NCBI GenBank assembly: GCA_951406725.2
Contig: OX597820.1
Location: forward strand, 14,508,001 to 14,572,000
DNA length: 64,000 nucleotides
Origin: Octopus vulgaris
Lineage: Eukaryota
Direction of reading: 5' to 3'
The stretch's first letter is position 1; the number at the start of each line of letters is the position of its first letter. Positions 55,401-56,986 of the stretch are shown in pieces. The notes under the pieces were generated by a model. It was given only the letters and a program-made list of their open reading frames with translations, did not search any database and was not told the origin of the DNA. The position numbers were made by a program, and so were the translations under genes.

Positions 55401-55725
55401 ATTCCTCATTTTATTTCTTAGATTGAGGAAGAGGAACAGTACTGGAAATCCCTTCTGGTTTATTTAGGATAATGCTATCAATATAATACATATACGCATA
55501 CATATAATATGCATGTGTATGTTTGAATATACAAACAAGAAGAAAACATACTCAGATATAATTAGAAATGTATTTCGTTTTGGGATTTGGTTTGCAAGAT
55601 TCTTTATATGAGTTCGTGTGTTGAAGCATATTCTGTTGTGTCTGGGGAGAGTCATTTTCTTTTTGTGCCTTATAATCTAACACACTCACCAGTAAAATTT
55701 CCACTTATTTCTTATTTTTATTTTC

Positions 55726-55762
55726 CTAAAATTTTCATTGCGTCTTGCAACCTTTTCAATAG
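55726..55762 (-). ncRNA. Minimal hammerhead-like motif with a U3-A8 core variant
   Basis: Minus strand: CUA-UUGAAAA-G-GUUGC aagac GCAAU-GAAA-AUUU-UAG, with AATAAA a few nt downstream (55722-55717). Confidence 0.5.
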
Positions 55763-56986
55763 CCTTGACCCTGTCCGTTATTTACACTGCGTTCCCTCTT
55801 GTTTGTTTGTGCTCATATGTGTGGGTCAGTGTGTGTGTGTGTGCATTTATACATGCATGAATGTACGTATGTATGTATGTGTGTGTTTGCATATGTATTT
55901 ATGTATATATGTGTGTGTATGCAAATGCATATTAGAAATGTAATTCCACTTCACTTTCACATATGCATATTAGAAATGTAATTATTTATTATTGCAAATT
56001 GGTGATTATTCTCTTCTGATGTTGCTCCAAGTTTTATGAGTATTCTTGCTGATCATTCCACTGGAAACTGAATTATTAAAGGAGGTTGTGTAACAAGTAT
56101 GCCTTTCTCATACTGGACTTCATGCTATTTCGCAGTGGTCAGGTTTATTATACTGTTAAACATTGTCCTTTGAGCTGGTTGGTAGTCTCATTGATATCTC
56201 CATACTGTAAGTTTCTATGAAATAACTTGAGAAACACAAACACACATGCATACGTACCCAATACAAATGTGTTTTTCAGCGAGTAGAGTCTAGCACTTTG
56301 TCTTTTGAGCTTCAGAGATCTTCTCTTCTGTGTTTGGTGAATGGTGTCTGTAAGCATAAATGTTCGCTATTCATCTCTCTGTGGCCTTAATCAGAAATGA
56401 ATTAAGCTGCATAAAGGACCTTTGTAAAGAAGTTTTGCTAAGCCAAGTATCTTGTATCAGATAGTTTTCTTATGTAAACTTTGCATTATTTATAGCAACA
56501 GGAAGGCGGCTTTGTTTAATATATATGGACGAAAGTAGAAGAAATACAAATGCTGTATAGATAGATGTGTCTGTGATGGGTGATGATGGCAGCGGAAGTG
56601 GTGGTGGTTGATAGAAACATGTAAGAGTGTGTGTTGCAGTTCCTGGCAGACAGAGGACAGACAGTGCATCTATAACTTTCTCGAGTGTCCAGAATGCATT
56701 GATGTAGTAAGAAATCTATTCAAGCAACCTTTAAATAAAGAAGAAAAGCAAACGAGACAGAGAGAGAGAGAGAAATAAAAGATGACCTGTATTTAATGGA
56801 TTTCTAGATGTTTGTAGATAAAGTTTTGTTGCCCAAGTGATTTAATTGGTGTGAGGATGGAGATGAAACAAAGCAGTGACATGAAGCTGCCGTTAAGTAG
56901 ATGCAAGTTCGTTTATATTTTGTCTGTCTAGCCAAGAGGTTAAATATGTATGTGTAGTGGTTGTCTGAAAAAATGTCTGGTTTCTA

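What the first reader, a model, noticed from the sequence alone, without database searches (positions are those of the whole stretch)
55700..55762. Unrelated repeat with a hammerhead-like core showing a compensated C3-G8 to U3-A8 change
Seen on minus: CUA | UUGAAAA | G | GUUGC aagac GCAAU | GAAA | AUUU | UAG, then AATAAA. The layout matches family P: one extra nucleotide after A9, a 5-bp stem II, a 4-nt palindrome (AAUU) in place of stem III, and cleavage after U. The core reads U3...A8 instead of C3...G8. Known: positions 3 and 8 form a Watson-Crick tertiary pair in the active hammerhead, so the double change keeps the pair, and searches requiring CUGANGA would miss it. Inference: a variant-core ribozyme family at the end of a Penelope-like repeat (about 55450-55762). 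Stem I is only 3 bp here and the sequence is AT-rich, so a chance match is possible.
Basis: partly seen in the sequence, partly recalled or inferred. Interest (0 to 1): 0.7.

Follow-up and report, generated by a model that had tools for sequence, protein, structure and literature searches.

The report
Penelope retrotransposon hammerhead, U3-A8 core
This is a short leftover of a very common octopus jumping gene whose end carries a small hammerhead-shaped RNA, predicted to cut itself only weakly and in pairs; its swapped core letters are real but already described in such elements, so it is an ordinary new example.

Summary
The motif is real (55762-55726, minus strand; the only such hit in the window, none in 100 shuffles). 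It lies in a 358-bp, 5'-truncated copy (55573-55930, between 12-bp direct repeats) of a Penelope-like retrotransposon family with at least 5,693 genomic hits. Long copies encode reverse transcriptase plus a C-terminal GIY-YIG nuclease. The motif sits 73 nt upstream of the start codon, not at the element's end. U3 and A8 occur together in 52 of 52 sampled copies that span both; stem I stays 3 bp. Two sister families carry C3-G8 and G3-C8 at the same place, with compensated stems, so the fold was kept under selection. U3-A8 is not new: Perreault 2011 and Cervera and de la Pena 2014 report it, the latter with the same UUGAAAA core and 3-bp stem I in a Schistosoma Penelope element. Copy 5' ends pile up just upstream of the motif (38 of 97), not at the cut site (5 of 97, background), so uncut RNA likely is the template. 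This copy has a weakened stem II. Cleavage is untested. The scan reported this family and reading before on other DNA of this genome.

The parts
55573..55930 (-). 5'-truncated copy of a Penelope-like retrotransposon (family A): end of 3' UTR + pseudo-LTR + tail
   Evidence: 86-89% identical to longer copies over 376-395 nt; 93-96% to the 40 best genomic hits; long copies carry the RT-EN ORF upstream
55561..55572 (.). 12-bp direct repeat at the element's 3' end (likely target-site duplication)
   Evidence: identical 12-mer at 55561-55572 and 55931-55942; a third at 55969-55980
55931..55942 (.). 12-bp direct repeat at the element's 5' end (likely target-site duplication)
   Evidence: homology to long copies stops at about 55932
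55831..55930 (-). CA/TACA-rich part of the element's own 3' UTR
   Evidence: shared by long copies between the ORF stop and the pLTR
55770..55772 (-). Inferred 5' end of the template RNA (likely internal transcription start)
   Evidence: 22 of 97 sampled copies begin at 55770-55772, about 1 expected; 38 of 97 at 55762-55772, 5 expected; depth falls about 9-fold or more across it in four further runs
55760..55762 (-). Hammerhead stem I, 5' strand (CUA)
55752..55759 (-). Core U3-U4-G5-A6-A7-A8-A9 plus one extra G
   Evidence: U3 54/54, A8 56/56, extra G 54/59 in the sample
55737..55751 (-). Stem II (5 bp) and 5-nt loop; this copy has U at 11.1 (55737) where the family has C
   Evidence: predicted pairing probability 0.3 in this copy against 0.98 in a C11.1 copy
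55729..55736 (-). G12-A13-A14, palindrome A15.1-A-U-U16.1 in place of helix III, and U17; predicted cut between 55729 and 55728
   Evidence: same arrangement as the Crassostrea row of Figure S3 in PMC4209133
55726..55728 (-). Hammerhead stem I, 3' strand (UAG)
55573..55655 (-). First 27 codons of the element's ORF (ATG at 55655-55653)
   Evidence: continues into the RT ORF in copies with a direct 5' pLTR; 74% identical over 27 aa to the N-terminus of the intact sister ORF
55573..55627 (-). 'Tail': about 55 nt between the two preferred 3' ends (about 55628 and 55572)
   Evidence: 47 of 97 copies end near 55628 and 35 of 97 near 55572; loose ends at 55571/55572 and 55628/55630 in other runs

Best explanation
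This is a dead, 5'-truncated copy of an abundant Penelope-like retrotransposon whose pseudo-LTR carries a minimal type I hammerhead with a U3-A8 core, predicted to cut weakly and only as a dimer or with the element's protein. [quoted passage not shown] Inferred: transcription starts about 10 nt upstream of stem I; reverse transcription starts internally at two sites about 27 and 83 nt past the ATG (pLTR end and tail end), primed at AT-rich targets; most cDNAs run off the RNA 5' end, which gives thousands of short direct and inverted copies like this one; two RNA copies pair through the AAUU palindrome to form helix III; cleavage is slow and is not needed for insertion. This copy is probably weaker still (C11.1 to U).
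For: Element identity: 665-aa stop-free frame with RYVDD, a C-x4-C-x2-C linker and YIGET, DKSG in another copy; direct 5' pLTR joined to the ORF in L079, L080, L083, L087, L091; inverted partial pLTRs, fixed 3' ends and (TA)n flanks. Copy number: 2,840 exact hits of a 34-nt core pattern and 5,693 of a 24-nt downstream pattern, reversed controls 0. Orthologues: families A, B, D are 54-61% identical in protein and form one branch (SH-aLRT 100, quick tree, 28 rows). B has C3-G8 (C3 47/49, G8 50/50); D has G3-C8 (93 of the first 100 of 7,360 hits). On 10 aligned motifs 93% of cells pair, 4 of 6 tested pairs have double changes, covariation 0.556 against 0.255 in shuffles (0/500) and at most 0.196 for slid partners. 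Stem I read by eye: CUA/UAG, CCA/UGG, and 7 bp in D. Precedent: U3-A8 natural (PMC3088659 section 8), about 1,300 hits in S. mansoni PLEs, same UUGAAAA core with 3-bp stem I; PLE hammerhead protein-assisted, dispensable for insertion, two internal RT starts (PMC11167929). No excess of 5' ends at the cut site: 5 of 97 against 5.5 expected; 1 of 51 in family B.
Against: No cleavage data. Stem I (3 bp) has predicted pairing probability 0.08 as a monomer, a competing hairpin from the leader covers U3-A6, and the AAUU duplex is unstable (+2.2 kcal/mol). The extra nucleotide is G, whereas the published consensus has H. The youngest sister family has lost A9 (C in 42 of 50) and two older D-like copies have G3-G8, which hints at relaxed constraint on catalysis. 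Invariance among family A copies is descent from one source, not selection. The covariation alignment has 10 hand-picked, related rows, and stem I and helix III were misaligned and left out of the count. Pfam matches are below cut-off (RVT_1 E 0.008, GIY_YIG_2 E 0.013). Family B lacks a 5'-end peak next to the motif (16 of 51 lie 40-70 nt further upstream).
Confidence: 0.72

Rival explanations
1. The fold is inherited from a working hammerhead but family A's version no longer cuts; it persists as a protein-binding or promoter element, or simply by descent.
For: Weak stem I and helix III and a competing hairpin; no copies enriched at the cut site; A9 to C fixed in the youngest intact sister family; hammerhead mutants did not affect insertion in vitro (PMC11167929).
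Against: The catalytic tertiary 3-8 pair is kept as three different Watson-Crick pairs in three expanded families, which a non-catalytic role would not obviously demand; 3-bp stems are the published norm.
Confidence: 0.2
2. The ribozyme cuts efficiently at both pLTRs; unit-length RNA is circularised and copied, so no cDNA ends at the cut site.
For: Model proposed in PMC4209133; every 3' end lies inside the ORF start, which a circle would allow.
Against: The strong pile-up of 5' ends just upstream of stem I (38 of 97) implies a linear template that still holds the whole uncut motif; internal RT initiation explains the 3' ends without a circle.
Confidence: 0.05
3. Chance resemblance in AT-rich DNA.
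For: AT-rich, 3-bp stem I, no Rfam hit.
Against: 0 hits in 100 shuffles; orthologous position before the ATG and compensated pairs in sister families.
Confidence: 0.03

Closest known systems
Minimal type I hammerheads of metazoan Penelope-like elements, including the U3-A8 form of Schistosoma mansoni Cercyon elements (Cervera and de la Pena 2014, PMC4209133; read: parts 1-2 of 4 of the main text, part 2 of 3 of supplementary file 2)
   Same: Position in the pLTR; UUGAAAA core (row S. mansoni(4) of Figure S3); one extra nucleotide after A9; G10.1-C11.1; palindrome in place of helix III (AAUU as in the Crassostrea row); cut after U; 3-bp helix I; thousands of solo and inverted truncated copies.
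   Different: Extra nucleotide is G, not H; host is an octopus, not listed in the supplement searched (0 hits for 'octopus'; file 1 could not be searched); sister families here add G3-C8 and C9 forms.
Natural U3-A8 hammerheads (Perreault et al. 2011, PMC3088659; read: section 8 and search passages)
   Same: Compensated C3-G8 to U3-A8 change, stated to be natural and active in vitro.
   Different: The passages read do not tie those examples to Penelope-like elements or to a dimer-dependent minimal form.
PAc (Poseidon) element of Anolis (Frangieh et al. 2024, PMC11167929; read: parts 1-2 of 4)
   Same: Hammerhead near the ORF start; two internal RT start sites giving pLTR end and tail; AT-rich targets; no sign that cut RNA is the template.
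   Different: PAc has a C3-G8 core overlapping the start codon and no Cys linker in its clade; here the motif is 73 nt upstream of the ATG and the tail is about 55 nt.
C-terminal-EN Penelope-like elements with a Cys linker (Neptune and Nematis clades; Craig et al. 2021, PMC8557442; read: search passages and part 54 of 59 of the supplement)
   Same: RT then GIY-YIG, C-xn-C-xx-C linker, (TA)n targets, direct and inverted pLTRs.
   Different: The short spacer after CxxC resembles the Nematis rows more than the Neptune rows; no tree with named references was built, so the clade is open.

Membership tests
Minimal type I hammerhead of metazoan PLEs | Core with a Watson-Crick 3-8 pair, GAAA and UH | tested here: met
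   U3+A8 in 52 of 52 copies spanning both; U16.1 and U17 72 of 72
Minimal type I hammerhead of metazoan PLEs | One extra nucleotide between 9 and 10.1 | tested here: met
   present; G in 54 of 59, whereas the published consensus letter is H
Minimal type I hammerhead of metazoan PLEs | G10.1-C11.1 opening stem II | tested here: met
   family: G 55 of 60, C 58 of 66; the window copy has G-U
Minimal type I hammerhead of metazoan PLEs | Palindrome at 15.2-16.2 and a short helix I | tested here: met
   AAUU and 3 bp; both occur in Figure S3 rows
Minimal type I hammerhead of metazoan PLEs | Located in the pLTR of a PLE | tested here: met
   found 3' of the EN domain and 5' of the ORF start
Minimal type I hammerhead of metazoan PLEs | Compensatory changes among homologues | tested here: met
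   4 of 6 counted pairs with double changes in 10 rows; stem I read by eye only
Hammerhead ribozyme | Self-cleavage after N17 | not testable with these tools
   no excess of copy ends at the cut site, which is neutral given PMC11167929
EN+ Penelope-like element | Single ORF with PLE-type RT and C-terminal GIY-YIG | tested here: met
   motifs DKSG, RYVDD, YIGET; Pfam only below cut-off
EN+ Penelope-like element | Direct and inverted pLTRs, tail, 5' truncation | tested here: met
Neptune or Nematis clade | Cys linker and phylogenetic placement | tested here: inconclusive
   linker present; spacing Nematis-like by eye; no named references in the tree
Non-LTR retrozyme | Non-coding unit with no ORF of its own | tested here: not met
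   long copies encode RT-EN and the short copies hold the ORF start

The most novel reading that the evidence does not exclude
One octopus Penelope clade has cycled the catalytic 3-8 pair through C-G, U-A and G-C (the last found only as a lab mutant in the papers I searched) and places the hammerhead in the first 45-65 nt of its transcript, so that protein-assisted cleavage removes the cap and acts as a feedback switch on translation rather than as a step in transposition.
Probability: 0.2. Interest if true: 0.6.

Novelty: new member of a known kind. Interest (0 to 1): 0.28.

Why it matters
The U3-A8 motif itself adds one host to a known class. The useful part is comparative: three expanded sister families with three different 3-8 pairs are natural evidence that the catalytic tertiary pair of Penelope hammerheads is under selection, and the copy ends map a likely transcription start just before the motif and argue that uncut RNA is what gets inserted. 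That makes the open question of what these ribozymes do directly testable with matched natural variants, one of them from a young family with intact ORFs.

Tried and rejected
Rfam at gathering threshold: no match. Type III or permuted wiring with a cut near 55770: rejected by eye, no helix III partner for the strand after GAAA. Longer stem I in full-length copies: not found. Pile-up of 5' ends at the cut site: absent in families A and B; not testable in D because that sample was chosen on stem I. A 3' splice site as cause of the 5' peak (both A and D peaks start at an AG, and D has a branch-point-like and pyrimidine-rich stretch before it): no shared upstream exon is seen in the junctions and the AG is usually kept, so a transcription start is preferred, but splicing is not excluded. 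A DPE-like AGACG (consensus recalled, not from a call) at +28 to +32 in loop II of family A: not kept at that spacing in B or D, so not used. Selection among family A copies: not testable, copies decay neutrally. Sequencing runs: no RNA holder listed, so expression and splicing at the GTGAGT motif (55689-55684) stay open. Pfam on the EN fragment gave only weak hits. The careful tree did not finish; the quick tree is cited. Literature searches; none listed a paper on octopus PLE hammerheads, and G3-C8 appeared only as a mutant (PMC11167929; PMC3884650 passages). PMC13282606 (passages only) has no mention of ribozymes. bioRxiv 10.64898/2026.07.22.740005: part 1 of 5 read, not used further. Unseen supplements (file 1 of PMC4209133; Dataset S1 and Figures S6-S7 of PMC3088659) could hold natural G3-C8 examples.

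Full report
Observation. A descriptor scan found this single hit in the window, and none for C3-G8 or U3-A8 cores in 100 blockwise dinucleotide shuffles. Rfam has no match at gathering threshold.

What it belongs to. The stretch is a repeat: 2,850 first-look candidates, the 40 scored 93-96% identical apart from the window itself; 2,840 exact hits for a 34-nt core pattern and 5,693 for a 24-nt pattern just downstream, reversed controls 0. The window copy spans 55573-55930 between identical 12-mers at 55561-55572 and 55931-55942, not 55450-55762. Longer copies extend 5' through a CA/TACA-rich UTR into an ORF. L042 holds 665 codons without a stop, with RYVDD, a C-x4-C-x2-C linker and a YIGET nuclease motif; DKSG is seen in L068. 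Pfam is only suggestive. In five loci the pLTR runs directly into the ORF, so the ATG at 55655 is the element's start codon and the motif lies 73 nt upstream of it. Among 97 distinct copies chosen only on the downstream pattern (90 loci covering most of the first 100 listed hits, all on contig C1), 47 end near 55628 and 35 near 55572: the pLTR end and tail typical of Penelope-like elements. A database protein labelled Octopus vulgaris matches the sister family at 100%, so the host is an octopus.

Conservation inside the family. U3 and A8 occur together in 52 of 52 sampled copies that span both, and 33 of these 52 keep all 11 core positions. This reflects descent, not selection. Stem I is 3 bp in ORF-linked copies as well. 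The window copy carries U at 11.1 where 58 of 66 copies have C; predicted stem II pairing falls from 0.98 to 0.3. In contigs of four further runs from four organism labels no core position shows 10% or more other letters; within the motif only 55737 and the loop position 55742 are listed.

Comparison with sister families, the decisive test. A young family B (intact 1,309-aa ORFs, copies about 99% identical) and a family D are 54-61% identical to family A in protein and form one branch with it (quick tree, 28 rows, support 100). Each has a hammerhead at the same place before the ATG. B has C3-G8 (47 of 49 and 50 of 50) but C at position 9 in 42 of 50, A in 7. D has G3-C8 in 93 of the first 100 of 7,360 hits, a 7-bp stem I and a 6-nt palindrome. 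A thinly sampled family C has C3-G8 (two copies). On 10 hand-picked motifs, the 3-8 pair and stem II pair in 93% of cells with double changes at 4 of 6 pairs; covariation 0.556 against 0.255 for shuffles and at most 0.196 for slid partners. Stem I and helix III were misaligned by MAFFT and read by eye. Seven degraded or redundant rows of the 17 were left out of the count; they include mismatched 3-8 states (G3-A8, U3-G8, C3-A8, G3-G8). The rows are related, so the shuffle figure is not a probability. Still, three Watson-Crick states at the catalytic pair in three expanded families show that the fold was maintained in the active lineages.

Where copies begin. 5' boundaries pile up at 55762-55772: 38 of 97 against 5 expected, and 22 at 55770-55772 against 1. 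At the cut site there are 5 against 5.5 expected. Depth in four other runs drops about 9-fold or more between 55740 and 55790, though two private changes in the window copy may sharpen that step. In D, 17 of 31 copies begin 12-18 nt before stem I, one true copy extends further, and 10 could not be extended. In B there is no peak next to the motif; 1 of 51 begins near the cut and 16 begin 40-70 nt upstream of the core. I infer that the template RNA starts just upstream of the motif and is uncut. No shared upstream exon is visible, so a transcription start is more likely than splicing.

Mechanism. Shown: element identity, position, covariation, end distributions. Inferred: an internal start at about 55772; reverse transcription initiating inside the ORF start at two sites and primed at AT-rich DNA, as demonstrated for PAc (PMC11167929); run-off at the RNA 5' end with fold-back or joining of two cDNAs to give inverted stubs; slow cleavage after U17 that needs two copies pairing through AAUU and probably the element's protein. 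Against strong activity: stem I pairing 0.08, a leader hairpin covering U3-A6, and an unstable 4-bp A-U helix III. Published minimal hammerheads are also nearly inactive alone.

Comparison with what is known. U3-A8 is described as a natural, active covariation (PMC3088659) and in about 1,300 S. mansoni PLE motifs (PMC4209133), whose Figure S3 lists a UUGAAAA core with a 3-bp stem I and cut after U. All testable defining features of that class are met; the G at the extra position departs from the H consensus. The clade (Neptune or Nematis) is not settled. Six paper searches listed nothing on octopus PLE hammerheads and showed G3-C8 only as a mutant; unseen supplements may hold natural cases.

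Earlier notes of this scan (and one search returned nothing) report the same U3-A8 family, the G3-C8 sister and the reading of copy ends on other DNA of this genome. I had reached these results; the notes are not independent support.

Verdict. A real, ordinary member of a known class, in a decayed copy. Novelty: new member of a known kind. Interest 0.28; the sister-family series and the start-site inference are the parts worth a bench test.

Noticed in passing
L124:742-790 and 7,360 genomic hits: Sister family D has a G3-C8 hammerhead core with a 7-bp stem I and an AAUAUU palindrome; two older-looking copies (L127, L130) have G3-G8.
   Followed up: partly
L105:2137-2183 and L105:2263-6198: Young, intact sister family B (1,309-aa ORF, copies about 99% identical, some in tandem on C19) has replaced the conserved A9 by C in 42 of 50 copies; older copies keep A9.
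   Followed up: partly
L124, about 15-40 nt upstream of stem I: Branch-point-like and pyrimidine-rich stretch ending in YAG exactly where family D copies begin; a possible intron end as in Drosophila Penelope, or an initiator.
   Followed up: partly
window 55684-55689 (minus): GTGAGT splice-donor-like motif between the hammerhead and the ATG, well conserved in family A; no nearby acceptor before the ATG.
   Followed up: no
   Followed up: no
window 55925-55983: A 21-bp stretch containing the target-site 12-mer is duplicated once more upstream of the insertion (55969-55980).
   Followed up: no
L031:6969-8292 in oriented coordinates: A 440-codon open frame with WD40-like repeats lies directly beside, and opposite to, a family A insertion.
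   Followed up: no
L033:2796-5931 in oriented coordinates: A 1,045-codon RTE-like LINE ORF without stops, inserted in a Tc1-like element.
   Followed up: no
L105:6675-6690: An AAAATGGC motif (YY1-like, recalled) lies where family B 5' boundaries are loosely clustered.
   Followed up: no
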